A stretch of 64,000 nt of DNA, from assembly GCA_002708715.1 (NCBI GenBank), contig PAPB01000024.1:33320-97319 (forward strand), given 5' to 3'. The position numbers were made by a program, and so were the translations under genes. The notes beneath the pieces are model-generated. The model was given only the letters and a program-made list of their open reading frames with translations. It had not been told where the DNA came from and ran no database searches. Below are positions 1 to 34,961 of the stretch, in pieces (the first letter of the stretch is position 1; each line of letters starts with the position of its first letter). The stretch is from Fidelibacterota bacterium. Its GTDB lineage: Bacteria; Fidelibacterota; Marinisomatia; Marinisomatales; UBA1611.

Positions 1-1044
1 ATAGAGTGGAATGGACTAAAATTTATTAGGGAGGATAGTACTTTTTTTCACCCTGATGATTGTAAAAAACTTTTTGAAATTGTTGATAAAGACCCGGCTA
101 TTGAATTAGCTAAGGTGCCAGGAATGATTTGGCCAGAGCAGAATGCAGTGCAAAAGCATGTAATCTCTTGTGTTAGTTTAAAGTGTATTATGTTGAATCG
201 TATTCAAAAAAGAAAGTTTAAAGTTATTATTGATTCAGTTAATGGGGCTGGTTCGCATGCACTACCAATAATGTTGCAAGCGTTAGGGTGTGAAGTGATA
301 AAATTAAATTGTGAACCAGATGGGAATTTCAATAGAGGAACTGAGCCATTACCTGAAAACTTAATGGATCTCTGTCAGATGGTTAGAGATCATCATGCTG
401 ATGTAGGTTTTGCGATAGACCCAGATGCTGATAGATTAGCAATCGTTAATGAGAAGGGAGAACCTTTAGGAGAGGAATATACAATAGTGTTAGCTGCTGA
501 TGGCTATTTAGATGAAACGAATCGGAGTGAAAAATTTGTTCTTAATCTTTCTTCTTCTTTAGCATTAGAGAAACTTGCGGAAATTAAAAAAAGTTCTGTA
601 GTTCGTTCTGCGGTGGGTGAGATAAACGTTGTTAATAAAATGAATGAAGTTAATTCTAATTTTGGAGGAGAAGGGAATGGTGGTGTTATTTTACGTGAAT
701 GCCATTTAGGACGTGATTCATTAGTTGGAGTTACAATGATTTTGAACCGGATGTCTCAATCAAATGATCCATTGAGCGTAATACATCAATCGTTACCTCA
801 GTTTAAAATTGTAAAAGACAAACTAAGCCTTGAAAGCATAGATGCTGATGAAATTATAACAAAAGCAATAGAGCTTTTTAAAAGTGCAGAAAAAAATACT
901 TTAGATGGAATAAAATTTACTTGGGATGATAGTTGGATACATCTTCGTAAATCTAACACAGAACCAATAATGCGGATTTATGCCGAGGCTCCTGATGAAC
1001 TTCGAGCAATAAAATTAGTAGATAAGATAAAGAATCTTATTTGA
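1..1044 (+). CDS. alpha-D-phosphohexomutase family protein (phosphoglucosamine/phosphomannomutase-like), 5' end outside window
   Basis: The frame is open from base 1, with no stop before the GTG at 115. It carries the metal-binding loop GFAIDPDADRLAIV and the C-terminal phosphate-binding loop RKSNTEPIMRIY typical of the family. Confidence 0.8.
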   Translation: MEWNGLKFIREDSTFFHPDDCKKLFEIVDKDPAIELAKVPGMIWPEQNAVQKHVISCVSLKCIMLNRIQKRKFKVIIDSVNGAGSHALPIMLQALGCEVIKLNCEPDGNFNRGTEPLPENLMDLCQMVRDHHADVGFAIDPDADRLAIVNEKGEPLGEEYTIVLAADGYLDETNRSEKFVLNLSSSLALEKLAEIKKSSVVRSAVGEINVVNKMNEVNSNFGGEGNGGVILRECHLGRDSLVGVTMILNRMSQSNDPLSVIHQSLPQFKIVKDKLSLESIDADEIITKAIELFKSAEKNTLDGIKFTWDDSWIHLRKSNTEPIMRIYAEAPDELRAIKLVDKIKNLI

Positions 1045-1686
1045 ATGAAAAGTTTAGCCCATTTTATTGATCACACAAACCTAAGCCCTGTTGCACAGGA
1101 GAGAGATATTAAGGTGTTGTGTGATGAAGCTATTAAATATGATTTTGTTTCTGTGTGTTTAAATCCTGTTTATGTTCCAATTGCAAAATCGTTTTTGAAA
1201 AATAAAAACATAAGGGTTTGTTCTGTTGTTGGTTTTCCTCTTGGCGCTGACTCAGCGGAAATGAAATATGCAGAAGCACGATTTTTAATTTTTAATGGTG
1301 TCGATGAAATAGATATGGTAATGAATATTGGTTCTTTGAAAGAGAAAAGAACTAATATTGTTAAAAATGAAATAAAAAAAGTGGTTGATGCTGCAGAGGG
1401 AAAGATTGTAAAAGTAATTATAGAGACTTCTTTATTAGATAATGATGAAAAAATTTTAGCTAGTAATTTAGTAGAAGATTGTGGCGCAAATTTTGTTAAA
1501 ACTTCTACTGGGTTTTCTGATGGTGGTGCAACTATTGAAGACGTAAAATTAATAAAAAAAGCTGTTGGTAGCCAGATAGGTGTTAAAGCTAGTGGGGGTA
1601 TAAAAACAAAGGCATCAGCTATTTCATTTATTGAGGCTGGCGCTGATCGTATTGGGACTAGCAGCGGGGTGAAAATAATTTCATGA
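1045..1686 (+). CDS. deoC: deoxyribose-phosphate aldolase
   Basis: 213 aa with FVKTSTGF (Schiff-base Lys region) and GVKASGGI motifs. The N-terminal IDHTNL is typical of DeoC. Confidence 0.9.
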   Translation: MKSLAHFIDHTNLSPVAQERDIKVLCDEAIKYDFVSVCLNPVYVPIAKSFLKNKNIRVCSVVGFPLGADSAEMKYAEARFLIFNGVDEIDMVMNIGSLKEKRTNIVKNEIKKVVDAAEGKIVKVIIETSLLDNDEKILASNLVEDCGANFVKTSTGFSDGGATIEDVKLIKKAVGSQIGVKASGGIKTKASAISFIEAGADRIGTSSGVKIIS

Positions 1687-3089
1687 ATGATACAGTTGTG
1701 CTAAAACGTGGTACAGAATTAGAATTAGATATTCAATCCTTAGCTTATGGTGGAATGGGTGTAGCAAAGATTGATAATTTTGTAATATTTGTAAAAAATG
1801 CAATTCCAGGGCAAAAAGTATTTGCCTATGTATACAAAAAGAGGAAGGGATACGCCGAGGCGAGTGTAAAAGAGGTCCTTAAAGAATCTGAATATGCTGA
1901 AAAAGTTCACTGTAATCATTATTACATATGTAGCAAACTTCAAAGTCTATCATACGATCAGCAAATAATTGAAAAAGCGAATCAGGTCGAAGATACTTTT
2001 CGAAGATTAGGGGGTTTTTTAAAATTCTCTTTAGATAATACGGTAATTGCGAAACAAATTTTTAATTATCGTAATAAAATGGAGTTTACTTTTTCACCAC
2101 ATAGATGGGTACTTGATAGTGAACCAGAAGGTGTGGATCGTTCTTTTGCGTTGGGTTTACATATGACTGGTAGGTATGATAAAATACTTGATATTCATAG
2201 CTGTCACATACAGCCAAAAATTGGTGATCGGATATTATCGATTGCAAGAGATGTTTGTTTAAAAAACCCTCAACTTAGACCATATGATCCTAAAACACAT
2301 ATTGGTTTTTTACGTTTTTTGATGATTCGATATGGCTTTAATACTCCTGATCTCATGGTAAATATAGTTACCTCTTATAATGATATGAATAAACTATCTC
2401 CACTTACCGATAGGTTATTAGAAGAAGTACCAGAGATTACCTCCATGGTTAATAATGTTAACACACGTAAAGCAGATGTAGCTTTTGGTGAGTATGAAAC
2501 ATTATTATATGGGAACCCATACATTCATGAAAAGTTAGGTGATTTAACTTATGAAATCTCTGCTAATTCTTTTTTTCAGACAAATACATTACAAGGAGAA
2601 GTCCTTTACAAAGAGGTAGAAAAATTAATTGATTTTAAAGGTGATGAAATAGTTTATGATTTATATTGTGGCACTGGAACTATAGGTTTATTTCTAGCGC
2701 AAAATGCAAAAGAGGTTTACGGGTTTGAAGTGATTAGATCTGCATTAGAAGATGCTGAAAAGAATGCTGATTTTAATAACATAGAAAATGTTCAATTTTT
2801 AAAAGCAAATCTTGATACTTATTTTAAATCTGGTCAACTTCCAAAAAAGATACCAAGACCAGATGTAGTTATTGTAGACCCTCCTCGAGCAGGAATGCAT
2901 CCAGATATGACGCAATATTTACCGAAGTTGAAAGCAAAAAAAATAGTTTATGTATCATGTAATCCAACGACTCAGGCTAGAGATGCGAAGATATTACATG
3001 ATAAAGGATACAAAATAAATAAAGCTGTTATGGTTGATATGTTTCCTCATACTCCACATATTGAAAATATAGTATTATTTTCTAAGTAA
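1683..3089 (+). CDS. rlmD: 23S rRNA (uracil-C5)-methyltransferase, RlmD/RumA family (TRAM domain + SAM methyltransferase)
   Basis: N-terminal TRAM-like segment (LAYGGMGVAKIDNFVIFVKNAIPGQKV). SAM motif DLYCGTGTIG, VVIVDPPRAGMH, and catalytic Cys in YVSCNPTTQARD. ATGA overlap with the deoC stop. Confidence 0.85.
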   Translation: MNDTVVLKRGTELELDIQSLAYGGMGVAKIDNFVIFVKNAIPGQKVFAYVYKKRKGYAEASVKEVLKESEYAEKVHCNHYYICSKLQSLSYDQQIIEKANQVEDTFRRLGGFLKFSLDNTVIAKQIFNYRNKMEFTFSPHRWVLDSEPEGVDRSFALGLHMTGRYDKILDIHSCHIQPKIGDRILSIARDVCLKNPQLRPYDPKTHIGFLRFLMIRYGFNTPDLMVNIVTSYNDMNKLSPLTDRLLEEVPEITSMVNNVNTRKADVAFGEYETLLYGNPYIHEKLGDLTYEISANSFFQTNTLQGEVLYKEVEKLIDFKGDEIVYDLYCGTGTIGLFLAQNAKEVYGFEVIRSALEDAEKNADFNNIENVQFLKANLDTYFKSGQLPKKIPRPDVVIVDPPRAGMHPDMTQYLPKLKAKKIVYVSCNPTTQARDAKILHDKGYKINKAVMVDMFPHTPHIENIVLFSK

Positions 3090-3815
3090 AGCTTTTGAAA
3101 AACGTGATTTTGGTATTGCTTTATCAAACTCAACTTCATCAATAATCCACTCGGTACCTTTGCTATTTCTTTTTAGCTCATCCTTGTATCTGAATTTTGA
3201 GGGAAACCAACGATCCTGTATTTTTTTAAAATAACTTAATGTAGAGGTTTTTAATAGTTTTCCACTTTTAGCATACAGCTCTTCTTTCACAGGGAGAAAA
3301 TATTCTTTATCTATCCAAGACTTTCGTTTTGGGTATGGAAGACCTTTTACTTTTGCCTCCATAGTTATAACCCAATGATCTCTATCAGCTATTATTTCTG
3401 ACCCAGATATATTTGCTTCATAAATTTCTCCCATAGGGCGATCTTCCATCATATCATTGTAAGACATATCTGAACCCATAACAGACTGACGTAACATATG
3501 TCCTGATATTTGAATGACTCGATCTGTTTGTGGTGAATAGGTCCATAGTTTATCATCCAATTTCAACATTTTTGTCCCCGCCTCACGAGCTGGTGAAAGA
3601 TATTCGGTAAATGATTTGTCTGTTCCGATAACCCAGCTTTTAGATTCAATCGTGCGACTAGATCGTCTTCCATGTACCACCATTTTACTTTTTAAAATTC
3701 TACTTTTTGCATTTAAGTTTTTATCCATTTTTGCGATGATTTCATCAACGGTTATATCTTCAGTTTGACCAGTTAGAAATGATAAAGATATAATATATAT
3801 AAGTATTTTTATCAT
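3075..3815 (-). CDS. LolA-like outer-membrane lipoprotein-sorting / hydrophobic-cargo carrier protein (secreted)
   Basis: 246 aa with an N-terminal signal peptide (MIKILIYIISLSFLTGQ). Length and sequence pattern resemble the LolA_like family that is commonly encoded next to FtsX permeases and MMPL genes. 4-nt overlap with the upstream permease. Confidence 0.6.
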   Translation of the reverse strand: MIKILIYIISLSFLTGQTEDITVDEIIAKMDKNLNAKSRILKSKMVVHGRRSSRTIESKSWVIGTDKSFTEYLSPAREAGTKMLKLDDKLWTYSPQTDRVIQISGHMLRQSVMGSDMSYNDMMEDRPMGEIYEANISGSEIIADRDHWVITMEAKVKGLPYPKRKSWIDKEYFLPVKEELYAKSGKLLKTSTLSYFKKIQDRWFPSKFRYKDELKRNSKGTEWIIDEVEFDKAIPKSRFSKALLRK

Positions 3816-5098
3816 GCTTCAAGTTCCTTAAATAATTGTGCCATTTCTCGTTTATATATGGCGACTCCGGATAACATAGTCCCTAATACAGTCGCGATTA
3901 CCCCAGGTATAAAACCGATATAGTACAGATCTGGGGTAATCTGTGCATAGAATATATTTGGCATTACCATTGAGGATGTTGACATAGTTGAAACAACCTC
4001 AGAATAATCTATCCCATATTCTTGCACATAATAGGTAAGCATTAGTCCTATGCTTGTTCCAAAAATGGTACCCGTAAAACCAACGATTAATGCTTCAACT
4101 ATCATGGAACGATAGACGTCACCTTTTGATTCGCCCATTGCAAGACGTAAACCAAATTCACCATGACGTCTAAGCCCATTCATAAGTCCCATATTCCAAA
4201 GAACTATCGTAACAATTATTAAAAATACGCCTCCGATTATTAATAAAAATGCATCGACCATATCAACCATAGTACCCATTTGCTGGCTAGAATTACGTAA
4301 TGCTATCATAACTGGGCTGAATATATCAGAGGTGTCAGAGTGGCTATTATTGTAATCATTACTGATATCTATGGCTTTCTTATCATTATAAAATAGTGAA
4401 TTGGTAAAACCGAAAATTTCCGAGGCTGCGTTCTCCATATCTAAAGCTTTTCTAGCGCCTGAGATATCAACAAGCATCATTTGCTTATCTGCTTGCCCTT
4501 TACGTAAGTCAAATGTTCCCACTACTAAAAAATTATATGTAGTGAACGCGTTATGCATTGTTGTGCCAATGTAGGTTGCTATATCTCCAATAGTAATATT
4601 TAGCTTGTTTGCTAGTTTTTCACTTATCAGTACTTCTTCTGAAGTTTTCGGGATTCTACCGTTGACTAGATTATTTTCAAGTTCCCATAGTTCTTTCATT
4701 CTTGAATTTTTATTTAGTAAATCAATCCCCATGGCAATAACTGGTCCTTGGTCTTTTGTTTCGCCATTAGAATCTGGCATGTCTAATAGTCCCCCGAAGG
4801 TTATTCTGGGGCTCCAAAAATGATCAGGGTATTCTTTATTAAGATTTACTATTATTTGATCAACATCTAAAAGAGCAAGGTCATTTGGAAGCATTTGACT
4901 TTCTTCTTTATAAGCACGAGTCACTACTTTTTCATGCCCTGAAATAATTACAGCGGTATCTAAAAATACATTGTTCATACCACCTTTCATGAAACCTATT
5001 GCAAAAATAACAATAGTCACAGTTATCGTAATAATGATAACTGGGAATAGGCTACGAGAGCGATCCCGTAGAAGGCCTTTTGTAAGAAACTGTATCAT
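3812..5098 (-). CDS. ABC transporter permease, FtsX/MacB type (TM1, large periplasmic domain, 3 C-terminal TM)
   Basis: 428 aa with the N-terminal motif LLRDRSRSLFPVIIITITV followed by a roughly 230-aa soluble domain. The C-terminal FtsX-like region has FGLRLAMGESKGDVYR. Confidence 0.8.
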   Translation of the reverse strand: MIQFLTKGLLRDRSRSLFPVIIITITVTIVIFAIGFMKGGMNNVFLDTAVIISGHEKVVTRAYKEESQMLPNDLALLDVDQIIVNLNKEYPDHFWSPRITFGGLLDMPDSNGETKDQGPVIAMGIDLLNKNSRMKELWELENNLVNGRIPKTSEEVLISEKLANKLNITIGDIATYIGTTMHNAFTTYNFLVVGTFDLRKGQADKQMMLVDISGARKALDMENAASEIFGFTNSLFYNDKKAIDISNDYNNSHSDTSDIFSPVMIALRNSSQQMGTMVDMVDAFLLIIGGVFLIIVTIVLWNMGLMNGLRRHGEFGLRLAMGESKGDVYRSMIVEALIVGFTGTIFGTSIGLMLTYYVQEYGIDYSEVVSTMSTSSMVMPNIFYAQITPDLYYIGFIPGVIATVLGTMLSGVAIYKREMAQLFKELEA

Positions 5099-6270
5099 AT
5101 TCCTGTTTTTCCTCTCAAAGCATCTGTGGGCTTCATTTTAGCAATACGTCTAGATGGTAAATAGCTGACGATAATAACAATTGAAAAAACTAAAATTGTT
5201 GTGGTGATGATTAGGCCAAAAGAATAGATGGGCATAAGTCGTTTCGCTATCATAAACCCCATTTCTGTATAGTCCATTGGCATAGGAACACCATGCTTTG
5301 CTGTCCACCAAAGGATTATACCAAAGGGGAATACTGTTAATGCTGAGGCTAAAATAGCATTGATCCCACCTTCTAATGTAAAAAGCCCAACTACTTTTGC
5401 CCGTGTCATTCCAAGGGCCATTAGTGTTCCAATTTCTTTTCCACGTCTAAAAATAGATAAAACCTGTGCATTAAATATTCCCATGGCTGCTAGTGATAGT
5501 AGAATTGTAAACATGATTTGAATACTAGGTTTATCTGCCTCAATAGCTGCTTCAATATCTTGTATCAGATAGTTTACGTCCCGATGAATCCAACCATCAG
5601 ATTTTTTTACTTTTTTTTCGCCTATTGCATAGGAAACGTATGTGACCTCATCCTTCATGGCTAGCATCTCTTGAGCTTTTTTGATAGGAATCCAAATATG
5701 GCCTATATCTAATTTAAAGTTTTCAGTATCCATAATATGAACCACGGTACCTTCATCTGCATCGTAAGTTCCATCAGAGTCTAGCCAGCGAATTGTAAAA
5801 GAATCTCCAACGTTTAATTTTGCATTATTTGCCATTCCTTTTCCAATTAATACAGGTATGTTAATATCCTTGTTATTATTTAGGGTATTCGTTGGCATGT
5901 TTACAATATTTTGTCCAGGGTCAATTCCTTTCATAATGACAGGCATAATTCGACCATTTGGATAGATCGCTGCTTGGCTTACGAGTATAGGAACTGCTTT
6001 ATTTTTTTCTACTAAAGAACGGATATCTTGAGGTAGAGTGGAATGAGAATCTTCAAATAATATTGGTTCCATTGGATCATATAGTGGATGCCAATAGGCT
6101 CCGCCAGCGATTTCTGTATCAATTGTGACTTGCTTTGCGTGTTGCCGCATTCCATCATACAATCCTGTCATAAAAATAATCATAAAAAACGATATTGCTG
6201 TAACGAAGACATTTAAAAAAGTTCTAAGTTTAGCTCCTAATAAATTTTTTAATGCTATTTTAAATAACAT
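5095..6270 (-). CDS. ABC transporter permease, FtsX/MacB type (second, non-identical copy)
   Basis: 391 aa starting IALKNLLGAKLRTFLNV, typical of MacB/LolC-type permeases. The C-terminal FtsX region has IGTLMALGMTRAKV and ends PSRRIAKMKPTDALRG. Confidence 0.8.
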   Translation of the reverse strand: MLFKIALKNLLGAKLRTFLNVFVTAISFFMIIFMTGLYDGMRQHAKQVTIDTEIAGGAYWHPLYDPMEPILFEDSHSTLPQDIRSLVEKNKAVPILVSQAAIYPNGRIMPVIMKGIDPGQNIVNMPTNTLNNNKDINIPVLIGKGMANNAKLNVGDSFTIRWLDSDGTYDADEGTVVHIMDTENFKLDIGHIWIPIKKAQEMLAMKDEVTYVSYAIGEKKVKKSDGWIHRDVNYLIQDIEAAIEADKPSIQIMFTILLSLAAMGIFNAQVLSIFRRGKEIGTLMALGMTRAKVVGLFTLEGGINAILASALTVFPFGIILWWTAKHGVPMPMDYTEMGFMIAKRLMPIYSFGLIITTTILVFSIVIIVSYLPSRRIAKMKPTDALRGKTGI

Positions 6271-6977
6271 TATACATCTTCTTTTTTTATTTTTTTATCA
6301 TTAATGATATTGCCATCTTCTAAACGAATAATACGTTTTAAATATCCCATGATTTTTTCATCGTGAGTAGCAAACACAAAAGAAGTGTCAAGCTCATTAT
6401 TAAGTTTCGTTAGTATTCTCATGATGTTGTGAGAGTTTTCTGCATCCAGATTAGCGGTAGGTTCATCAGCCATGACAAGCACTGGCTCATGTACAAGTGC
6501 CCTTGCAATAGCAGTTCTCTGACACTCCCCACCACTTAGCATATTAGGTTTGGAGTTGCGTTTATTAGTAAGTCCAACCCATTCGATAGCTTGATTCACT
6601 CTTTTTATTCGATTGGCTTGGTCTATTTTGTTGAGTATAAGGGGTAGTTCGATGTTTTCAAAAACAGTATATACTGGTAGCAGGTTATAACTCTGAAAAA
6701 TAAATCCCATGTATTTTCTCCGCAATTTGGCGCGTTCGTTATGGGTAGTATTATCTAATGACTGATCTAAAACACGTACCGTTCCTTCACTCGCAGAGTC
6801 TAGACCTCCTATAATATTCAGCAAGGTCGTTTTTCCTGAGCCTGATGGACCTATAAGACCAGTAAATTCACCTTTGTGAAGTTTGAGATCCACATTTTTT
6901 AAGGCAGTAAAAAAATCTCCACCTACTGGAAAACGTTTTACTAGATTTTGTATTGAGATGACAGTATTGCTCTCCAT
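6270..6977 (-). CDS. ABC transporter ATP-binding protein (LolD/MacB-ATPase-like)
   Basis: Walker A GPSGSGKTT, signature LSGGECQR, Walker B VLVMADEPT, H-loop ATHD. Confidence 0.9.
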   Translation of the reverse strand: MESNTVISIQNLVKRFPVGGDFFTALKNVDLKLHKGEFTGLIGPSGSGKTTLLNIIGGLDSASEGTVRVLDQSLDNTTHNERAKLRRKYMGFIFQSYNLLPVYTVFENIELPLILNKIDQANRIKRVNQAIEWVGLTNKRNSKPNMLSGGECQRTAIARALVHEPVLVMADEPTANLDAENSHNIMRILTKLNNELDTSFVFATHDEKIMGYLKRIIRLEDGNIINDKKIKKEDV

Positions 6978-6986
6978 ATTATTTCC

Positions 6987-8054
6987 TTAGTGATTGTAGA
7001 TGAACATAAATTGTATGCCCGCACCAAATCCAGAGAGTGATTTTGGGAGCGCATTTTCTGGTATATTATATTGATTTCTTTTTGGATTTAGTGAAAGTAT
7101 CATATTTAAACTATAGCTATCAAAAGTACTACTCCATCGAAAATAATGATAGGATTTTTCTTCTGACCAATCAAATTGAGATATATACATAGCCGCATGC
7201 ATGATACCAATAGGGAAACTTGCCATGATCCCAGAGTAGTTTTGGGTTTCATTTTTTGTTGATATAGACATCGTCTCTGCCATTATTAAAATTCCATTAG
7301 CCACGGGTAATGTATAGTCCGCTCCTATTGATGATAATAGAATTTCTTCATTTTTTGATTTAATCAGTGCACTTTCATTCCAAAAACCAATAAATCCATC
7401 ATATCTGTAGTCAATAGCTGTTCTTGTATGGGAGTTATTAATAGGGACGCCTGGTTGCCCAATCATTTTTTTTGAATTTAAAGGATCTAGATGTAATGTG
7501 AAACCAAATTCACCAAAAGACGAAGAGATTTCGGCTCTCCCACCATAAGATTGAGTGTCTAATTCATTTTGTATAAACCAGGACCATACTGAAATATTAT
7601 TTGATGGGAACCATTTAAGTCTAAATGCTTCTACACCATTAGTTTCACCAGCTGGATCTTTTACGTCAAAAGTGTCAAACCAAGAAAGAGGACGAAGAAT
7701 CTGGGTTGGGCCAAATATAATTTTTTGTAGTCCAAGTCTAGCCTCTAATTTTTCGTTTGAATAGCGTGCCCAAAGGCGATAAGGTTTTTCAATTGTGTTG
7801 TAAAGTGAGTCTCCCGAGTAATCTTTTTGTAGTCGATAACCCCATTCAAAATCTAATAAACCCTGAGTTGGCATTTCTTTTTTTAGGGAAAGAGTGGGGA
7901 TATAGCCGATAATTGATTGATATTTTGACCAATTTTTTGGGATATTATTTCCAGTCATAGCCCCGATTGTCAACATTCCTTTTGTTGAAAACTGGGCGCA
8001 GATAATTGCAGAATTCAAAATTAATCCAAATATTATGTATTTAGAACCATGCAT
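6987..8054 (-). CDS. hypothetical secreted protein, candidate outer-membrane beta-barrel
   Basis: 355 aa with a signal peptide (IIFGLILNSAIICAQ). It is rich in aromatic/Gly alternating stretches (FGFTLHL, IDYRYDGFIGFW, GAGIQFMFIY). The C-terminus ends in NH rather than a canonical aromatic residue, so the barrel call is tentative. Confidence 0.4.
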   Translation of the reverse strand: MHGSKYIIFGLILNSAIICAQFSTKGMLTIGAMTGNNIPKNWSKYQSIIGYIPTLSLKKEMPTQGLLDFEWGYRLQKDYSGDSLYNTIEKPYRLWARYSNEKLEARLGLQKIIFGPTQILRPLSWFDTFDVKDPAGETNGVEAFRLKWFPSNNISVWSWFIQNELDTQSYGGRAEISSSFGEFGFTLHLDPLNSKKMIGQPGVPINNSHTRTAIDYRYDGFIGFWNESALIKSKNEEILLSSIGADYTLPVANGILIMAETMSISTKNETQNYSGIMASFPIGIMHAAMYISQFDWSEEKSYHYFRWSSTFDSYSLNMILSLNPKRNQYNIPENALPKSLSGFGAGIQFMFIYNH

Positions 8055-8086
8055 AAGTAGATATTATAAAAATTTAAAATTGAATA

Positions 8087-10330
8087 TTATTTTTTGTTTG
8101 TATTTGGCAATACTAAACAAAGAGCTGGTAATAGTGTAAGGTCGCAGATTAGGGCAGTTCCGATCATTGCAGATGAAAGTAGTCCAAATTGATAGGTAGG
8201 TAGGAATGCCGATAGTAATAGAACAGAAAAACCTGTGACAAGAACGGATGTAGTAATTAACAAGGCTGAACCTGTATTCATAATGGTTGCTTTAATTGCA
8301 TTTGTTCGATTTTGCCCCATACGTAGTTCTTTTCTGTAGCGAAGTAGAAAGTGCAAACTGTCATCAACTGCAATCCCAAGAGCAACAGCAAATGTCATCG
8401 CAGTTGGAGGACGAATTGATATCCCCATCCATGCTAAAATCCCGAGCACTGTAAATATAGGAATAAGGTTTGTTATGAGACTTGCAAAAAGAATAGAGTT
8501 AGCTCGAAACATAAATGCCATTATAATGCTGATTAAAATCAAAGCGAGTCCCAGACTATTGATAAGCGATTGAACAAGATAGTCATTTGTTTTTAATGCA
8601 ACTACAGTTGTTCCCGTATACTCGAGATCAATATAATTAGAGAACACTTTTGAAATTGAATCTAGTTTAGAATAAATAATTTTCATTTCATCAGAAGTCT
8701 TATCCTCGATAAGTCCTGTTATTCTCAAAATAGTCTGCTTATCATTTACAAGCTTCATTTGTTGATTTGACTGATTTTTTACAATTTGCTTGATAAGTTG
8801 TTCATCATTTATTTTTTCAAGGTTTTTTGAATATATTCTTTTTGCAGATGCAATGAGGTTGTTTATTGAAAAGAACCGGCTGTTTTTCAATTCTGATTTA
8901 AGAAGAGTTTCAACTTCTTTGGATATTTCCAAAATTTTTTGATTAAGTACCGAAGTATTTTTATCATTTCTTTGCTCATTTATTTTTATTAAAACTTCAA
9001 AAGGTAAAACTCCTCCGAAATATTTTTCTGTGAGTTTAAGGTCTTGATATAATTTGTTTTTTGGTCTTAGATCATCCATTAAAGATGAATTTGTGGATAT
9101 ATCTTTTATTTTGTAAGTACATGTAATCACAATTACGCTAGGTATTAAAATAAACATCCAGGGATTTTTTGGGATGGAATTGGATAACCAAGAAAGAACA
9201 GGCAGAAAAAAATCTTTCTTTTTTACATGGAAATTTTTAGAAAAAATTATTCCAGAAGGAACAACCAATATAGAAACTAACCAAGCAATCATAACTCCAA
9301 TAGAGATCTCCATTCCAAATTCTTGAACAATTTTAATTGATGTTGTCATCAAGGCTAAAAACCCAATTGAAGTAGTTATGCTTGTTAAAAATATGACCCT
9401 AGACATTTGAGACATGGTTTGGAACATTGCCTTCTTGGGATTAGAAGGGTTCATTAAGAAGTTTTCTCTAAATCTAGCTTGAATATGTATGGCATCTCCT
9501 ATCCCAATAATAAAAAGAAGTGTAGGAACAATATAGGTCATAATATTTATTTCTAATCCTGTTAAACCCATAATCCCGAGGAGCCAAATAACTGTTATTA
9601 AAACTGTAAGCATTGGTAAAAAAACGTATACCCAGTTTCTAAAAACAAATGTTAGAATTGAGATCAATAGAAAAGCTATTGGTGGTAAAAATAGAAAATT
9701 ATCTCTAAGCATATAACGAACATATTCGCTTCGCAAAACAGATACTCCTGAAAATGTCCATTCCGCGAATTGATCTGTGGTTAATTGTTTTATTTCTTCA
9801 ACTAGAGCAGTTCGGTTTTTATGATTATTTGCATTATCTTTAAGAGAAACTATTATTGCCCCATATTGCAAATCTTTTGATAGTACTCGTGATCCAATCG
9901 ATGGATCCTGCTGGATATATTTTAATTTTTCCGTAATATGTTTTTCATTCCAATTATAGGAGTTGTTATAGAAATCTCCTAGCCATGCATTTTCGTCAAC
10001 ATCACTAAGAGTGAAAATGGAGGCAATACTTTCCACTCCATTTAACGACTCGATTTTATAGGTTAAATCTTCTAGCTCGATATATAAATTTTTTTCATAA
10101 ACATTATATGGTTTATAGATAATAGTTATTACATTATCTTCTCTTCCAAATGTATCTCTAAAAGAAAAATATTTTTCTACGTTGGGATCATTTTTGGAAA
10201 ATAAATGTTCAATGGAGAAATCAATCTTTAGTTTTGGAATAGATAGTGCCAGAACTATGGTAATAACAAATACAATAGACAGAGTGATTTTGGGATGATC
10301 AATAACAGAATGGAAAAATCGATTTAACAT
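8087..10330 (-). CDS. MMPL / RND-superfamily membrane transporter
   Basis: 747 aa with two hydrophobic 5-6 TM bundles, each preceded by a large soluble loop. Sequence around GIGDAIHI and ALGIAVDDSLHFL is typical of MMPL/SSD exporters. Confidence 0.8.
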   Translation of the reverse strand: MLNRFFHSVIDHPKITLSIVFVITIVLALSIPKLKIDFSIEHLFSKNDPNVEKYFSFRDTFGREDNVITIIYKPYNVYEKNLYIELEDLTYKIESLNGVESIASIFTLSDVDENAWLGDFYNNSYNWNEKHITEKLKYIQQDPSIGSRVLSKDLQYGAIIVSLKDNANNHKNRTALVEEIKQLTTDQFAEWTFSGVSVLRSEYVRYMLRDNFLFLPPIAFLLISILTFVFRNWVYVFLPMLTVLITVIWLLGIMGLTGLEINIMTYIVPTLLFIIGIGDAIHIQARFRENFLMNPSNPKKAMFQTMSQMSRVIFLTSITTSIGFLALMTTSIKIVQEFGMEISIGVMIAWLVSILVVPSGIIFSKNFHVKKKDFFLPVLSWLSNSIPKNPWMFILIPSVIVITCTYKIKDISTNSSLMDDLRPKNKLYQDLKLTEKYFGGVLPFEVLIKINEQRNDKNTSVLNQKILEISKEVETLLKSELKNSRFFSINNLIASAKRIYSKNLEKINDEQLIKQIVKNQSNQQMKLVNDKQTILRITGLIEDKTSDEMKIIYSKLDSISKVFSNYIDLEYTGTTVVALKTNDYLVQSLINSLGLALILISIIMAFMFRANSILFASLITNLIPIFTVLGILAWMGISIRPPTAMTFAVALGIAVDDSLHFLLRYRKELRMGQNRTNAIKATIMNTGSALLITTSVLVTGFSVLLLSAFLPTYQFGLLSSAMIGTALICDLTLLPALCLVLPNTNKK

Positions 10331-10382
10331 ATTTTAAATTGAATTTTTTATTATGAATAAGGTATTTTTTAAAAAGAATTAT

Positions 10383-11168
10383 TTAAAAAGATTTTTTAGA
10401 CCATAAACTAAAAAGTTCTAGCAGTTTAAATGTTATTGGACCCGGAAAACCTTTATTAATTATAATTGAATTTACCTTTGTAACAGGAATAATTCCTGAT
10501 CCGCTATTTGTTAAGAATAATTCATCTACCCGATTAATATCAAATATATTAAGCTTCCCATAATGAATAGGGATCGGTGAGTTCTTAATTATTGTTTTTC
10601 TTGTTATTCCAGGGAGCACATTATTCTTCCGGGTGAATAGGGAATTAGAGATCACCCAAAAAATGTTACTTCGGCTACCTTCTAAAATATTATTTTTTTT
10701 ATCTAGCAATATTGCTTCAAAGCAGTTCTTCCTCTTTGCTATTTCATATGCATTTAAGCAGCCTTTATAATCAGTTGTTTTAATGTGAGGAGAGTCTCTT
10801 GTATAAGAAATAGTTAACGTATCCACACCTTTATAGATTTTTTTATCAAGATTTAAAGAGGTAGAATAAATAATAACCTTATTTTGTGTGACAATAATGC
10901 GTGCTCTTTGATTTTCATCATGGAAATGATTTATAACTATATTTATCATGTTTTTAATTTCTTGCTTTGAATAAATTATTTTTAAATTTATTCTTTGAGC
11001 AGAATTAAAAAGTCGGTCCAAGTGTGGTTCTAGTAAAATAGGTTTATAGTTTTTAGTTCGAAATGTTTCATATAATCCATAGGAAAAGCCAAAAGAATCT
11101 GTCCCAGGTTGAAGTTCATCATCATTAAATGATTCCCAGTTTCCATTTATCAGTGCTTTAATCATCAA
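10383..11168 (-). CDS. class IV aminotransferase family protein (aminodeoxychorismate lyase / branched-chain aminotransferase-like)
   Basis: 261 aa with YGLYETFR, HLDRLFNSA, a candidate catalytic Lys in HIKTTDY, EGSRSNIF and LPGITR motifs of PLP fold-type IV. Confidence 0.75.
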   Translation of the reverse strand: MMIKALINGNWESFNDDELQPGTDSFGFSYGLYETFRTKNYKPILLEPHLDRLFNSAQRINLKIIYSKQEIKNMINIVINHFHDENQRARIIVTQNKVIIYSTSLNLDKKIYKGVDTLTISYTRDSPHIKTTDYKGCLNAYEIAKRKNCFEAILLDKKNNILEGSRSNIFWVISNSLFTRKNNVLPGITRKTIIKNSPIPIHYGKLNIFDINRVDELFLTNSGSGIIPVTKVNSIIINKGFPGPITFKLLELFSLWSKKSF

Positions 11169-11194
11169 CTCTAAATAAAAAAAATGTTAGTATT

Positions 11195-12337
11195 TTAATT
11201 TTTAGTAACCTTCCCATCTGTTTTTAGTTTTTTGTTTCGTTTCCATTCAGACTTAGCGTAAAGCAACAAGGGGAATCCAATAAACATACAAAAAATACCC
11301 TGTATGAGAAATCTAAAATCAATTCTAACAAAAAACACAAACAGTAAAAATAATGCAAATAAAGTTAATAGAGTACCACAGCCTATTAAAAATCCAAAGG
11401 TAGTCATTCGTTTATTATATAATTTTTTATCTATAATCTCTTTTGGTGTATCTGATTCTATTTCATCTTTTGAGGGAAGTGCATTAGTATTCGTTTTATT
11501 CAGTTTATTGTGTAGTAAAGACAATTCCTTAAAAGAGTGTTTTATATCATTCATATCCTTTATGTTGTGATTAATAATCCTATATTTTATTAAAATTGAA
11601 TTATTATCAAATTTCCATGTCCAATTAGGATTTTTAATTATTTGTTTACGAATATTTTTGTTAAATAGTGCTCTAATTTTTGCTTGGTCTTCTCCAGCTA
11701 AATCAAATTTTTTTGAAAATTCTTCATCAGAAATAAAATTAATATCATCGGGGTTAGGGGATATGCTGTCTATCCATTCATGTATTGGGTCAACGCTGCA
11801 TTTTGGAAAGTTAAGAGTATCTGATTTAAAATGAATAACACGATAGTAGGTGGAATTATTTTTTCCTTTTGGGATTCGTTGCGTTCCAATCATTATATAT
11901 GGCTTAACGGAATCTTTAGTGCATAAAATATTTATTAGGGTTTGTCTTGAAAAAATTGCTCCATAGAAACACCTTAGGATTGAGTCAGGTTTTATTTTTT
12001 TATCAGAGTTCCATATATCATTTTCTAGTTTCCCAATATCATTTGCATAGGGGGTGTAATAATCTCTAACTTTTTTTTGGTAAACTAACCAAGAAAAAAA
12101 ATTTAAATTTTTTTGTGGCGCTACCGTTCTATTATCTAAATCCAGATCATTCGCAATAGACTCCAGTTCTCTATATCTTTTTTCTTTTCTTTCTTTTGGA
12201 TCGAAATAACCATTTATAAGCCATTGGGGAATAATAATTAATAAAAGTGTGATATGCGATAGAATAAATATTGCAGGAATAAAAAGTATCCAGAAATTAA
12301 GATCGCTTAAGATCTGTCCATGTGATGATAGAAACAT
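11195..12337 (-). CDS. hypothetical membrane protein (1 N-terminal TM, about 270-aa soluble middle, 2 C-terminal TM)
   Basis: 380-aa uninterrupted ORF. Hydrophobic segments are FWILFIPAIFILSHITLLLIIIP, FGFLIGCGTLLTLFALFLLFVFFV and IFCMFIGFPLLLY. I recognise no family motif. Confidence 0.5.
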   Translation of the reverse strand: MFLSSHGQILSDLNFWILFIPAIFILSHITLLLIIIPQWLINGYFDPKERKEKRYRELESIANDLDLDNRTVAPQKNLNFFSWLVYQKKVRDYYTPYANDIGKLENDIWNSDKKIKPDSILRCFYGAIFSRQTLINILCTKDSVKPYIMIGTQRIPKGKNNSTYYRVIHFKSDTLNFPKCSVDPIHEWIDSISPNPDDINFISDEEFSKKFDLAGEDQAKIRALFNKNIRKQIIKNPNWTWKFDNNSILIKYRIINHNIKDMNDIKHSFKELSLLHNKLNKTNTNALPSKDEIESDTPKEIIDKKLYNKRMTTFGFLIGCGTLLTLFALFLLFVFFVRIDFRFLIQGIFCMFIGFPLLLYAKSEWKRNKKLKTDGKVTKN

Positions 12338-12504
12338 AAATTATATCCTATGCACTGGTTATTCAATATTACGAAACATCTAAGAAAATATTCTATTTGC
12401 GATAGTTTTTATTATTAATGATCTTTCGAATGTATGAACATTTGAAATGTTGTAAAATATTGACCAATATTTCAACATGATATCTTATTTAATACTTAAT
12501 AAAT

Positions 12505-25330: not shown

Positions 25331-25398
25331 ATTTTTGTTTAATTAAAGTCTTATTAAGGATCAATGAAACTTCCCAATAAATATATTGTATACAGTTG

Positions 25399-26748: not shown

Positions 26749-26759
26749 AAGAAAATAAT

Positions 26760-28028: not shown

Positions 28029-28056
28029 AGGTGTCTTTTATAAATAGGAGATTGTT

Positions 28057-28746
28057 TTGGTTTTAATTGCACTTAATAATATTTATAAAATTTATAATGT
28101 AGGCGGTGAAGAGGTTCGAGCTTTAGATGGTATTAATTTAGAAATTAAGGAAAATGAATATTTAGCAATCATGGGTCCATCTGGATCAGGTAAGTCTACC
28201 TTAATGAATATGATTGGTTGTTTAGATACTCCTTCTTCAGGAGTCTATCAATTTGAGGGTGAAATGGTACAGGAAATGGATGACGACCAGCTAGCATCTA
28301 TAAGAAATCGGAAGATAGGCTTTGTTTTTCAAACATTCAACTTATTACCTAAAGCAACCGCACAGCATAATGTTGAAATTCCACTTATTTATGGTAATAT
28401 AAGAAAAAATGAAAGAATAAAAATGGCCTCAAAAGCTTTGATAGATGTTGGTTTGGCAGATCGTATGCATCATAAACCAAATGAGTTATCTGGGGGGCAG
28501 AGACAAAGAGTTGCTATTGCTCGCGCACTAGTAAATAGTCCTTCTATCATTTTGGCTGATGAGCCCACAGGTAACTTAGATTCAAAAAGTGGTCATGAAA
28601 TTATGGGGATACTTGATCAATTACATCAACGAGGGAATACAATTATTCTTGTTACTCATGAAGATAACATCGCACAGCATGCGCATCGAGTTATTAGATT
28701 ATTTGATGGGAAAATCACAGAAGATTCGAAAGTCAAAAGCGAATGA
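28057..28746 (+). CDS. MacB-type ABC exporter ATP-binding protein (stand-alone ATPase)
   Basis: Walker [40 protein letters not shown]. An AGGAG Shine-Dalgarno sequence lies upstream. Confidence 0.92.
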
Positions 28747-29954: not shown

Positions 29955-29955
29955 T

Positions 29956-34957: not shown

Positions 34958-34961
34958 TTAT

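What the first reader, a model, noticed from the sequence alone, without database searches (positions are those of the whole stretch)
3075..10330. Six-gene envelope module: MMPL + putative OM barrel + LolCDE-like ABC (1 ATPase, 2 FtsX permeases) + LolA-like carrier
The sequence shows six co-directional minus-strand genes with junctions of 32 bp, 9 bp, -1, -4 and -4 nt, so they are almost certainly one translationally coupled operon.

The products are:
- an MMPL/RND-superfamily transporter (747 aa)
- a signal-peptide protein with beta-barrel-like sequence texture (355 aa)
- an ABC ATPase (GPSGSGKTT / LSGGECQR)
- two different FtsX/MacB-type permeases, each with a large periplasmic domain
- a secreted 246-aa LolA-like protein

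By established knowledge, FtsX/MacB-type (type VII) ABC systems act by mechanotransmission on periplasmic substrates. MMPL proteins move lipids using the proton-motive force. LolA-fold proteins shield acyl chains in the periplasm.

My inference is that these parts make a complete inner-membrane to outer-membrane route for a lipid or lipoprotein cargo. It is neither canonical LolCDE/LolA/LolB (no MMPL or barrel there) nor MacAB-TolC, which is encoded separately at 25.4-31.2 kb with its own adaptor. I know of no experimentally characterised system with this composition, so this is the best candidate in the window for an undescribed transport machine.
Basis: partly seen in the sequence, partly recalled or inferred. 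Interest (0 to 1): 0.7.

Follow-up and report, generated by a model that had tools for sequence, protein, structure and literature searches.

The report
Barrel, ABC extractor, LolA-like carrier cassette
A marine Marinimicrobia genome carries a widespread but experimentally unstudied five-gene cassette (outer-membrane barrel, ATP-driven membrane extractor, soluble lipid-carrier protein), here sitting next to an optional proton-driven lipid pump, that most likely moves a greasy molecule from the inner membrane to or through the outer membrane.

Summary
Six co-directional minus-strand genes lie at 3075-10330 with the stated junctions: an MMPL/HAE3-type RND, a 355-aa protein, an ABC ATPase, two FtsX permeases and a PF17131 LolA-like protein. 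The 355-aa protein has no Pfam or NCBIfam family. AlphaFold2 (pLDDT 95) models it as an 18-strand porin/AlgE-like barrel with a conserved loop L3.

The conserved unit has five genes, not six. Barrel-ATPase-FtsX-FtsX-LolA-like keeps its order in 48 of 51 informative loci, across Marinimicrobia and several other phyla. A TetR gene lies directly upstream in 29 of 75 loci. MMPL is adjacent only in some Marinimicrobia, and its orthologues also occur alone.

A paralogous cassette exists: TetR, LolA-like, a homologous barrel (hhalign 97%) and MMPL. It coexists with the ABC cassette in one Fidelibacterota chromosome. The barrel plus LolA-like pair therefore looks like an outer part that serves two alternative inner-membrane motors.

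The cassette fails the canonical LolCDE/LolA and MacAB-TolC tests. Analogues are already published: AmeABCD (tested experimentally), P. gingivalis PG1178-80 and Borrelia BBJ23-29. It is most likely an exporter of a hydrophobic or amphiphilic cargo, and the cargo is unknown. I rate it a new variant of a known kind.

The parts
6987..8054 (-). Outer-membrane 18-strand beta-barrel of 355 aa, from a family with no Pfam or NCBIfam model. It has an SPI-type signal peptide, a conserved 30-residue loop L3 (residues 111-140, motif GLQKIxFGP..LRPLxWFD..DxxDP) and a [IV][YF]N[HY] C-terminus. First gene of the conserved five-gene core.
   Evidence: No family hit. AF2 pLDDT 95.2 with 18 strands. Foldseek finds AlgE and porins. 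643 and 677 homologue clusters. Invariant charged residues fall at inferred lumen-facing positions. Homologous to the MMPL-associated barrel family (hhalign 97.3%, E 2.5e-11).
6270..6977 (-). ABC ATPase of 235 aa, with Walker A GPSGSGKTT and signature LSGGECQR. It belongs to the MacB/LolD/FtsE-like clade.
   Evidence: PF00005 at 121.9 bits. LolD TIGR02211 scores 229 bits, below its cutoff of 307.75. It follows the barrel gene in 48 of 51 informative loci.
5095..6270 (-). FtsX-type (type VII ABC) permease 1, 391 aa. It has four predicted TM segments and a periplasmic domain of about 205 aa between TM1 and TM2.
   Evidence: FtsX 52.9 bits and MacB_PCD 26.4 bits, just under the cutoff. lolCE TIGR02212 scores 58 bits against a cutoff of 362. 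Hydropathy supports the topology. Only the TM part matches LolF/LolC/MacB in PDB, E about 1e-5.
3812..5098 (-). FtsX-type permease 2, 428 aa. It has four predicted TM segments and a periplasmic domain of about 230 aa. It is the presumed heterodimer partner of permease 1.
   Evidence: FtsX 60 bits and MacB_PCD 17 bits. lolCE scores 38 bits against a cutoff of 362. Hydropathy supports the topology. PDB matches are MacB, TM part only.
3075..3815 (-). Soluble periplasmic LolA-like carrier of 246 aa, family PF17131 / TP_0789-like. It has an SPI signal peptide and no lipobox. Last gene of the core, convergent with rlmD.
   Evidence: PF17131 at 183 bits, plus weak DUF1329 and RseB hits. PDB relatives are 3BK5, 3BUU, 9TP6 (P. 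gingivalis LolA3) and 4Z48. None of 53 orthologues has a lipobox.
8087..10330 (-). MMPL/HAE3-type RND transporter of 747 aa, with RND-like hydropathy (two hydrophobic blocks separated by two large loops). It is a lineage-specific upstream neighbour of the core and a possible second, proton-driven feeder.
   Evidence: PF03176 at 129.7 bits. HAE3 TIGR00921 scores 245 bits, below its cutoff of 351.9. HpnN scores 102 bits. Adjacent in L003-5, L012, L013, L032, L036, L037 and L087, with a 4-nt overlap to the barrel gene in L087. Solitary in L086 and L088.

Best explanation
The unit is a self-contained five-gene envelope cassette. I read it as a shuttle-type exporter that works without a continuous duct across the periplasm.

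Proposed steps:
1. An ATPase dimer drives a heterodimer of two FtsX/MacB-type (type VII) permeases. These use mechanotransmission to pull a hydrophobic or amphiphilic molecule out of the outer leaflet of the inner membrane or the periplasm.
2. The cargo is handed to the soluble PF17131 LolA-like protein, which shields it while crossing the periplasm.
3. The carrier delivers it to an 18-strand porin/AlgE-like outer-membrane barrel. The barrel's conserved loop L3 and charged lumen gate release into or across the outer membrane.

In most phyla the cassette sits behind a TetR repressor gene and has no conserved biosynthetic neighbours. The cargo is therefore more likely an inducing small hydrophobe or amphiphile (a tolerance or efflux function) than a housekeeping envelope component.

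In the window's Marinimicrobia lineage the TetR gene is absent. An HAE3-type MMPL sits directly upstream and plausibly feeds the same carrier and barrel using the proton-motive force. A homologous barrel plus PF17131 pair serves an MMPL in a paralogous cassette.

Shown here: gene content, folds, topology, conservation of the five-gene order, the TetR association, the paralogous MMPL cassette, and the failure of the Lol and MacB equivalog tests.

Inferred: the heterodimer, direction of transport, hand-off order, the MMPL sharing the outer-membrane part, and the nature of the cargo.
For: - Domain and fold assignments.
- The order barrel-ATPase-FtsX-FtsX-LolA-like is kept in 48 of 51 informative loci, in Marinimicrobia/Fidelibacterota, Zixibacteria, Aminicenantes, Calditrichia, Latescibacterota, Ignavibacteria, Bacteroidales, Poribacteria and a deltaproteobacterial MAG.
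- A TetR gene lies directly upstream in 29 of 75 loci.
- Flanking genes are otherwise unrelated.
- All 53 LolA-like orthologues have a signal peptide and no lipobox.
- The paralogous cassette TetR, PF17131, barrel2, MMPL occurs in L059, L083 and L085. In chromosome CP070638 it coexists with the ABC cassette.
- The two barrel families are homologous (hhalign prob 97.3%, E 2.5e-11). Both models have 18 strands with a 30-residue insert between strands 5 and 6.
- AmeABCD (HAE3 RND, outer-membrane protein, LolA-superfamily protein) is a genetically supported hydrophobe exporter.
- The window carries kdsA/B/C, lptC and lptB, so the organism has an LPS outer membrane.
Against: - No experiment exists on any member of this cassette.
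- Direction and cargo rest on analogy with other type VII ABC systems and with AmeABCD.
- The window's own lineage lacks the TetR gene, so the 'inducible' argument does not apply to it directly.
- The barrel lumen carries conserved charged residues, which is unexpected for a purely hydrophobic cargo. This may point to an amphiphile with a polar head, or to a different role.
- The window's MMPL belongs to a different subfamily (747 aa, 23-29% identity) from the 910-927-aa MMPLs of the paralogous cassette, and its orthologues are often solitary. Its cooperation with the cassette is therefore weakly supported.
- No protein-protein contacts could be modelled with these tools.
Confidence: 0.5

Rival explanations
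1. The cassette is a dedicated trafficking route for an endogenous envelope component. This could be a specific membrane lipid or glycolipid, or a subset of (surface) lipoproteins. It would be an alternative Lol-like pathway, with the barrel acting as the outer-membrane insertase or flippase in place of LolB.
For: - The parts parallel LolCDE-LolA: a heterodimeric FtsX permease pair, a LolD-like ATPase and a LolA-fold carrier.
- The Borrelia BBJ23-29 authors propose exactly this for an analogous cluster.
- The conserved polar lumen and L3 loop would suit an amphiphile with a polar head.
- In L059 and L081 a family-3 membrane acyltransferase gene is inserted inside the cassette.
- One homologue (P0227) carries SPOR peptidoglycan-binding domains fused to the barrel.
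- The window's lineage has no TetR gene.
Against: - TetR control in 29 of 75 loci, and a patchy distribution of 297 loci among 185,579 species genomes.
- No conserved biosynthetic neighbours.
- P. gingivalis LolA3, of the same PF17131 family, does not bind LolB, and F. johnsoniae lolA3 deletion has no gliding or T9SS phenotype.
- The permeases and ATPase fall far below the LolCE and LolD equivalog cutoffs.
Confidence: 0.22
2. These are simply the housekeeping LolCDE and LolA of this phylum, in a divergent form, lying next to an unrelated porin gene and an unrelated MMPL gene.
For: - The ATPase's best NCBIfam hit is LolD, and both permeases' best hit is lolCE.
- No other Lol-type genes occur in the 64-kb window.
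- In the window's clade the cassette sits in a stable housekeeping neighbourhood, from valS to rlmD.
Against: - Scores are far below the equivalog cutoffs: 58 and 38 against 362, and 229 against 307.75.
- The carrier is PF17131, not the LolA family, and has no PF03548 hit.
- The barrel gene is locked to the cassette in 48 of 51 loci, so it is not an accidental neighbour.
- Relatives are TetR-regulated, some have duplicated permease pairs, and one chromosome carries two PF17131 cassettes.
- Bacteroidales MAGs carry the cassette, although Bacteroidota are reported to carry LolA1/LolB1 in all species analysed.
Confidence: 0.08
3. It is an uptake system for a hydrophobic nutrient such as long-chain alkanes, fatty acids or sterols. 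The barrel would admit the compound, the LolA-like protein would ferry it inward, and the inner-membrane proteins would take it up.
For: - In Thalassolituus oleivorans an MMPL-LolA-like fusion protein and an adjacent predicted porin are induced 42-fold, or exclusively, on n-C28 alkane.
- DUF1302 and DUF1329 genes of P. putida have fitness phenotypes on fatty esters.
Against: - To my knowledge, every characterised type VII (FtsX/MacB) ABC system acts outward or as a mechanotransmitter, and none is an importer.
- AmeABCD genetics indicate export and tolerance.
- No catabolic genes are conserved next to the cassette.
- The barrel resembles AlgE and porins rather than FadL.
Confidence: 0.08

Closest known systems
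AmeABCD of Castellaniella defragrans, with the co-fit DUF1302/DUF1329/BNR/RND genes of Pseudomonas (PMC6394551; bioRxiv 10.1101/2020.07.04.188060)
   Same: Both have an HAE3-type RND transporter encoded with an outer-membrane beta-barrel protein and a periplasmic LolA-superfamily protein. In AmeABCD, deletion lowers tolerance to monoterpenes, which indicates export. The window's LolA-like protein also gives a borderline DUF1329 hit (22.2 bits against a cutoff of 23.1).
   Different: - AmeA is a 605-aa DUF1302 protein, whereas the window barrel is 355 aa with no DUF1302 match (1 of 90 family members at E 0.035).
- AmeB is a 451-aa DUF1329 protein, not PF17131.
- A BNR/Ycf48-like AmeC is present there and absent here.
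- AmeABCD has no ABC transporter, while here the conserved motor is a type VII ABC and the RND is optional.
Porphyromonas gingivalis PG1175-PG1181 (porin PG1178, LolA3 PG1179, MMPL PG1180, TetR PG1181) and the equivalent Prevotella intermedia operons (PMC10434189, PMC13096392, PMC13103446)
   Same: [quoted passage not shown] A LolA3 crystal structure that matches the 9TP6 entry (annotated the same way, similar length) is the third-best PDB match of the window's carrier. LolA3 does not pair with LolB.
   Different: - The ABC genes in those operons are annotated only as 'ABC transporter ATP-binding proteins', and no FtsX was reported.
- Those operons are induced 13-136-fold by iron or haem limitation, and no such link is visible here.
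Borrelia burgdorferi lp38 cluster BBJ23-BBJ29 (PMC13078400; computational prediction only)
   Same: [quoted passage not shown]
   Different: - The barrel there is Omp85/BamA-TamA-like rather than an 18-strand porin/AlgE-like barrel.
- The permease is homodimeric, with one gene rather than two.
- It has two extra chaperone-like proteins.
- It has no MMPL.
LolCDE-LolA-LolB lipoprotein pathway (E. coli; LolA1/LolB1 in Bacteroidota)
   Same: Both have a heterodimeric FtsX-type permease pair, a LolD-like ATPase and a soluble LolA-fold carrier. The logic of extract, shuttle and deliver is shared.
   Different: - All three inner-membrane components fail the equivalog cutoffs.
- The carrier belongs to PF17131, not the LolA family.
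- The outer-membrane partner is an integral barrel rather than a LolB lipoprotein.
- Relatives are TetR-regulated.
MacAB-TolC tripartite efflux pump
   Same: Both use a type VII ABC motor, and export of amphiphiles is plausible for both.
   Different: - There is no membrane-fusion adaptor and no TolC-family duct.
- The permeases score only about 25 bits on the MacB model, whereas the window's genuine MacB-like pair at 28743-31200 scores 188-193 bits.

Membership tests
LolCDE/LolA/LolB lipoprotein-sorting pathway | Permeases are LolC/LolE equivalogs (TIGR02212, cutoff 362.45 bits) | tested here: not met
   58.1 and 37.8 bits. PDB matches to LolC and LolF cover only the C-terminal TM region, at E 1e-4 to 1e-5.
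LolCDE/LolA/LolB lipoprotein-sorting pathway | ATPase is a LolD equivalog (TIGR02211, cutoff 307.75 bits) | tested here: not met
   229.1 bits. The MacB-system ATPase at 28057-28746 scores about the same (231 bits), so this score is generic for the clade.
LolCDE/LolA/LolB lipoprotein-sorting pathway | Periplasmic carrier belongs to the LolA family proper and pairs with a LolB-type outer-membrane lipoprotein receptor | tested here: not met
   The carrier is PF17131 (183 bits) with no LolA-family hit. No LolB-like lipoprotein gene lies in the cassette, and the partner is an integral barrel. PF17131 LolA3 of P. gingivalis binds LolB only very weakly.
LolCDE/LolA/LolB lipoprotein-sorting pathway | Cargo is triacylated lipoproteins, and the system is the genome's only Lol system | not testable with these tools
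   The rest of the genome is not available.
MacAB-TolC tripartite efflux | MacB-type permease, HlyD/MacA adaptor and TolC-family outer-membrane factor encoded together | tested here: not met
   The MacB model gives about 25 bits for both permeases. There is no MFP or OEP gene in the cassette, in the window or in the related loci. A genuine system of this kind lies at 25396-31200.
Type VII (FtsX/MacB-fold) ABC transporter superfamily | FtsX C-terminal domain above the Pfam threshold, four TM helices with a large extracytoplasmic domain between TM1 and TM2, and a separate or fused MacB/LolD/FtsE-clade ATPase | tested here: met
   PF02687 scores 60 and 52.9 bits against a cutoff of 25.5. Hydropathy gives TM1, a loop of about 205 or 230 aa, then three TM segments. 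The ATPase's best hits are LolD, DarD, FtsE, DevA and MacB. The MacB_PCD match is only borderline (26.4 and 17.1 bits against 27).
PF17131 LolA_like / TP_0789-like (LolA3-type) proteins | Pfam match above threshold, secreted, and homologous to the solved LolA-superfamily structures 3BK5, 3BUU and 9TP6 | tested here: met
   183 bits against a cutoff of 30. PDB hits have E 2e-14 to 1.5e-9. An SPI-type signal peptide without a lipobox is found in 53 of 53 orthologues.
HAE3 / MMPL branch of the RND superfamily | MMPL domains, 12 TM segments with two large periplasmic loops, and the HAE3 subfamily model TIGR00921 (cutoff 351.9) | tested here: inconclusive
   PF03176 is met at 129.7 bits in two stretches, and hydropathy is consistent with the RND layout (two hydrophobic blocks separated by two large loops; TM segments were not counted). 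TIGR00921 is the best NCBIfam hit but scores 245 bits, below its cutoff. The closest solved relatives are SecDF, MmpL3 and HpnN, at E 1e-9 to 1e-5.
AmeABCD-type tetrapartite HAE3 systems (DUF1302, DUF1329, BNR, RND) | DUF1302 outer-membrane protein, DUF1329 periplasmic protein and a BNR/Ycf48-like protein encoded with the RND | tested here: not met
   The barrel has no DUF1302 hit (1 of 90 family members at E 0.035). The carrier hits DUF1329 at 22.2 bits against 23.1, but PF17131 is the real match. There is no BNR gene.
Porin / AlgE-like 16-18-strand outer-membrane barrels (structural class) | Closed antiparallel barrel with short periplasmic turns and an inward-folding loop | tested here: met
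   The AF2 model has 18 strands and pLDDT 95. Foldseek gives prob 1.00 to AlgE (TMq 0.62-0.65), OmpU, MOMP and OpdO. The position of the conserved loop (L3) and its inward fold are inferred, because no coordinates were available.

The most novel reading that the evidence does not exclude
The barrel family (no Pfam model, at least 677 clusters at 50% identity) together with the PF17131 carrier forms a common periplasm and outer-membrane 'back end'. It has been coupled repeatedly to two unrelated inner-membrane motors: a divergent heterodimeric type VII ABC extractor and an MMPL/HAE3 RND. This would define an undescribed class of shuttle-type exporters that cross the envelope without a duct, found across the FCB superphylum and beyond. 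In the window's lineage both motors would share one back end. That would make it a natural system for asking how ATP-driven and proton-driven extraction converge on one carrier, and what lipid or amphiphile these abundant ocean bacteria place in or beyond their outer membrane.
Probability: 0.3. Interest if true: 0.75.

Novelty: new variant of a known kind. Interest (0 to 1): 0.55.

Why it matters
Type VII ABC systems and LolA-fold carriers are central to building and defending the Gram-negative envelope. Only a few partner combinations have been studied: MacA-TolC, LolA-LolB, EnvC and TesA.

This cassette pairs a divergent type VII extractor with a PF17131 carrier and a dedicated porin-like barrel from a family that has no database model. 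It is conserved in order across several phyla, including Marinimicrobia (SAR406), a widespread uncultured marine lineage (my background knowledge, not tested here).

The homologous barrel plus carrier pair also serves MMPL pumps. This links scattered observations: the P. gingivalis iron- and haem-induced operon, AmeABCD, the alkane-induced Thalassolituus proteins, and T. pallidum TP0789/TP0790. It gives them one testable model.

If confirmed, it would add a general route for moving hydrophobic molecules across the periplasm without a continuous channel. It would also assign a function to LolA3-type proteins, whose role is currently described as unknown.

Tried and rejected
1. Genome scan with the 90-sequence barrel alignment failed because no stretch was conserved enough. 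It was repeated with an 18-sequence alignment.
2. The sigma-70 promoter and terminator scan of 2900-12700 was not informative. It found 63 promoter-like sites against 51.7±8.3 expected, and no terminator in the intergenic gaps. The organism probably uses other promoter types.
3. The Rfam scan of 1-14000 found nothing at E<=0.1.
4. Pfam on the barrel, alone and for all 90 family members, gave only sporadic Porin_4 hits (5 members, best E 1.4e-4) and one insignificant DUF1302 hit. No family assignment was made.
5. The homologue search with the MMPL returned only Marinimicrobia sequences of at least 66% identity. It could not show whether distant members of this MMPL subfamily keep LolA-like or barrel neighbours.
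6. My recollection that T. pallidum TP0786-TP0788 are the ABC partners of TP0789 was wrong. The literature assigns TP0786 to LptB, so only the TP0789/TP0790 adjacency, inferred from locus tags, is used.
7. I looked for cargo hints in flanking genes of ten diverse loci. The flanks were unrelated enzymes: choloylglycine-hydrolase-like, amidinotransferase-like, peptidase C26, SDR, deaminase, transposase and ABC-2 permeases. No conclusion was drawn.
8. A metal link was considered because of the HMA-MauE gene upstream in L006-L011 and the CopA-like ATPase downstream in L059 and L081. It was left as unexplained because the support is too sparse.
9. Multimer modelling and inspection of model coordinates were not possible with the tools.

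Full report
**1. Observation**

The six ORFs are present on the minus strand exactly as described: 3075-3815, 3812-5098, 5095-6270, 6270-6977, 6987-8054 and 8087-10330. Their junctions are -4, -4, -1, +9 and +32 nt.

GC content across the region is 0.31-0.36, like the rest of the window, so nothing marks it as a recent island.

Pfam and NCBIfam confirm the predicted domains:
- 747-aa protein: MMPL (PF03176, 129.7 bits). Its best NCBIfam hit is the HAE3 model TIGR00921 at 245 bits, below the 351.9 cutoff.
- ATPase: ABC_tran, with GPSGSGKTT and LSGGECQR motifs.
- Both permeases: FtsX above threshold (60 and 52.9 bits), with only borderline MacB_PCD matches.
- 246-aa protein: PF17131 LolA_like (TP_0789-like), 183 bits.
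- 355-aa protein: no hit in either library.

The closest relatives of these proteins come from Candidatus Marinimicrobia (Neomarinimicrobiota, SAR406) MAGs and marine metagenomes.

The same window carries kdsB, kdsA, a kdsC-like phosphatase, lptC, lptB and rpoN at 31.3-37.6 kb. The organism therefore has an LPS-containing outer membrane.

**2. The 355-aa protein is an outer-membrane barrel of an unmodelled family**

The family has 643 homologues in the 90%-clustered collection and 677 clusters at 50% identity. I built a 90-sequence alignment.

AlphaFold2 gave mean pLDDT 95.2 and pTM 0.86. The model has an N-terminal signal helix followed by 18 beta-strands. Foldseek against the PDB returns AlgE (TMq 0.62-0.65), OmpU, MOMP, OpdO and other porins at E about 5e-9 to 1e-7.

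The most conserved stretch of the family is GLQKIxFGP..LRPLxWFD..DxxDP. It falls in the 30-residue unstructured segment between strands 5 and 6. By standard outer-membrane protein topology this is loop L3, the loop that constricts classical porins.

Most invariant charged residues (R93, R173, D215, E227 and others) sit at positions that alternate with hydrophobic residues. They are therefore inferred to face the lumen.

The C-terminus is [IV][YF]N[HY] rather than a terminal Phe.

**3. Which genes belong together**

A scan of one genome per GTDB species found 297 loci encoding a relative of the barrel. The best 80 were fetched with 10-kb flanks. I searched them with tblastn using the six window proteins, and with jackhmmer on called ORFs.

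The order barrel, ATPase, FtsX, FtsX, LolA-like on one strand is the rule:
- 51 loci have at least 4.3 kb after the barrel gene.
- 44 of these were complete by the ORF-based count.
- Four of the seven apparent exceptions (L031, L050, L053, L077) are complete in the tblastn table.
- That gives 48 of 51. The true exceptions are L045, L054 and L076.

The loci come from Marinimicrobia/Fidelibacterota, Zixibacteria, Aminicenantes, Calditrichaceae, Latescibacterota, Ignavibacteria, Bacteroidales, Poribacteria and a deltaproteobacterial MAG. Some Fidelibacterota carry two consecutive permease pairs (L040, L043, L046).

The MMPL gene behaves differently:
- It lies immediately upstream only in L003-5, L012, L013, L032 and L036 (7 of the 78 loci other than the two copies of the window's own sequence), plus L037 with one ORF between. 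All are Marinimicrobia.
- Within the same syntenic frame (valS ... cassette ... rlmD, deoC), other Marinimicrobia carry an HMA-MauE fusion gene in that slot. Other Marinimicrobia lineages have a multihaem cytochrome/TPR protein or a TonB-dependent receptor immediately upstream of the barrel gene.
- Three orthologues of the MMPL at 68-69% identity were looked up. One is adjacent, with a 4-nt overlap to the barrel gene (L087). Two are solitary, with unrelated neighbours (L086, L088).

The conserved module therefore has five genes, and the MMPL is a facultative neighbour.

**4. Regulation and context**

Outside the window's clade, the gene directly upstream of the barrel gene is a TetR-family regulator in 29 of 75 loci with enough upstream sequence. 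None of the close Marinimicrobia relatives (L003-L038) has it.

Apart from TetR, the flanks are heterogeneous and contain no recurring biosynthetic genes. The cassette therefore looks self-contained and, in most lineages, ligand-inducible.

**5. A paralogous cassette with an MMPL motor**

In L059 the ABC cassette is preceded by a PF17131 gene, a 405-aa gene, a 912-aa MMPL gene and TetR. The 405-aa protein shares the L3 motif.

Its family (310 homologues) aligns to the window barrel family with hhalign probability 97.3% and E 2.5e-11. Its AF2 model (pLDDT 88.9) has 18 strands, a 30-residue insert between strands 5 and 6, and the same AlgE and porin neighbours.

The operon TetR, PF17131, barrel2, MMPL (910-927 aa) recurs in L083 and L085. 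L083 lies at 179-196 kb of Fidelibacterota chromosome CP070638. The ABC cassette of the same chromosome lies at 2.63 Mb (L046). One genome can therefore hold both.

It follows that a homologous barrel plus PF17131 pair is combined with two different inner-membrane motors. The window's barrel and carrier are of the ABC-associated type. Its 747-aa MMPL is only 23-29% identical to the 912-aa type. The window is therefore not simply a collapsed copy of both cassettes, and whether its MMPL uses the same barrel and carrier remains an inference.

**6. Not Lol, not MacAB-TolC**

- The permeases score 58 and 38 bits on the LolC/E equivalog model (cutoff 362) and about 25 bits on the MacB model.
- The ATPase scores 229 bits on LolD (cutoff 307.75), the same as the ATPase of the window's MacB-like system (231 bits).
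- PDB matches of the permeases are limited to the C-terminal TM region of LolF, LolC and MacB, at E about 1e-5.
- By contrast, the permeases at 28743-31200 score 188-193 bits on MacB and are preceded by an MFP and a TolC-family protein.
- The carrier's solved relatives are 3BK5, 3BUU, 9TP6 and 4Z48. 9TP6 appears to be the P. gingivalis LolA3 structure: the entry carries the same 'outer membrane lipoprotein-sorting protein' annotation and a similar length, but no tool output states the link. LolA3 lacks the LolA arginine and LolB leucine hallmarks and binds LolB only very weakly. Deleting lolA3 in F. johnsoniae affects neither gliding nor type IX secretion.
- All 53 carrier orthologues have an SPI-type signal peptide and no lipobox, so they are soluble rather than LolB-like anchors.

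I could not check whether this genome has a canonical Lol system elsewhere. The indirect evidence argues against the housekeeping-Lol reading but does not exclude it for Marinimicrobia. That evidence is TetR control, a patchy distribution, duplications, two PF17131 cassettes in one chromosome, and presence in Bacteroidales, which are reported to carry LolA1/LolB1 in all species analysed.

**7. What is already known**

- *AmeABCD of Castellaniella defragrans.* It combines an HAE3 RND (AmeD), a DUF1302 outer-membrane protein (AmeA), a DUF1329 LolA-superfamily protein (AmeB) and a BNR protein. Deletion lowers monoterpene tolerance and raises Nile Red accumulation.
- *Pseudomonas.* DUF1302, DUF1329, BNR and RND genes are co-fit.
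[quoted passage not shown] The operon is TetR-linked and induced 13-136-fold by iron or haem limitation.
- *Thalassolituus.* It induces an MMPL-LolA-like fusion and an adjacent predicted porin on n-C28.
- *T. pallidum.* TP0789, the namesake of PF17131, is numbered next to the RND TP0790. The adjacency is inferred from the locus tags.

The concept is therefore not new. What I did not find in the literature searched is this particular architecture: a divergent heterodimeric type VII ABC, a PF17131 carrier, and an 18-strand barrel of an unmodelled family. Nor did I find its breadth across phyla, or the interchangeability of ABC and MMPL motors on a homologous barrel and carrier pair.

**8. Most likely mechanism**

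The ATPase dimer powers the FtsX1/FtsX2 heterodimer. Each permease has four TM helices and a periplasmic domain of about 205-230 aa.

By analogy with LolCDE, MacB and YbbAP (my knowledge of the type VII family), ATP binding drives periplasmic movements that expel a hydrophobic or amphiphilic molecule from the outer leaflet. The soluble PF17131 protein accepts it and carries it to the barrel, whose L3 loop and charged lumen gate release.

TetR control and the lack of biosynthetic neighbours favour an exogenous or stress-related amphiphile, as for AmeABCD. An endogenous lipid or lipoprotein subset is the main rival. In the window's lineage the MMPL may deliver cargo to the same carrier using the proton-motive force.

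I put about 0.5 on the export-shuttle model as stated, 0.22 on dedicated endogenous lipid or lipoprotein trafficking, and less than 0.1 each on housekeeping Lol and on uptake.

**9. Verdict**

The finding is real and the cassette is genuinely uncharacterised, but it is not unprecedented in kind. I rate it a new variant of a known kind, with moderate interest of 0.55. The main value lies in the cross-phylum conservation and the two-motor, one-back-end pattern, which turn several scattered observations into one testable hypothesis.

Noticed in passing
window 31269-37569 (+): A classical LPS-related gene run: kdsB (CMP-KDO synthetase), pyrG, kdsA, a kdsC-like HAD phosphatase, lptC, lptB and rpoN. 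It shows that the organism is a diderm with LPS transport machinery.
   Followed up: partly
window 25396-31200 (+): A MacAB-TolC-like pump with a TolC-family protein, an MFP, a separate ATPase and two different MacB-like permeases (188-193 bits on the MacB model). The split heterodimeric layout matches the one described for T. pallidum TP0962-TP0965.
   Followed up: partly
L059 11058-12224 and 17555-19783; L081 1635-2813 and 9014-11239; L006-L011 just upstream of the barrel gene: In two loci a family-3 membrane acyltransferase gene is inserted between the barrel and ATPase genes, and a CopA-like HMA P-type ATPase lies two genes after the LolA-like gene. In six Marinimicrobia loci an HMA-MauE fusion gene occupies the slot that MMPL holds in the window. 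This may hint at an acylated cargo or a metal link. It remains unexplained.
   Followed up: partly
proteins P0227 (636 aa) and P0209 (622 aa), homologues of window 6987-8054: Two barrel homologues carry N-terminal extensions. P0227 has two SPOR-like (peptidoglycan-binding) repeats. P0209 has a PlsY-like acyltransferase membrane domain, which may be a gene-calling read-through. Both domain readings come from inspecting the sequences by eye; no domain search was run on them.
   Followed up: no
L040, L043, L046 (Fidelibacterota) downstream of the barrel gene: The cassette has two consecutive FtsX1-FtsX2 pairs (four permease genes) behind one ATPase gene. L048 and L050 have an extra FtsX1-like gene.
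   Followed up: no
L054 5766-9695: A variant locus has TetR and the barrel gene followed by a 1309-aa TamB-like protein instead of the ABC genes and the LolA-like gene.
   Followed up: no
window 6987-6998 (C-terminus of the barrel) and orthologues: The barrel family ends in [IV][YF]N[HY] (IYNH in 37 loci) instead of the usual terminal aromatic beta-signal residue. The MMPL-associated paralogue ends in RAYF.
   Followed up: partly
window 10383-12337 (-): Two further co-directional genes lie upstream of the MMPL: a class IV aminotransferase (261 aa) and a 380-aa protein with N- and C-terminal TM segments and no family. They are conserved only in the closest relatives (L003-L005) and are probably unrelated to the cassette.
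   Followed up: partly
window 18976-21954 (+): A 992-aa protein has a TMEM260-like protein O-mannosyltransferase domain (225.8 bits). A family-2 glycosyltransferase gene follows it.
   Followed up: no
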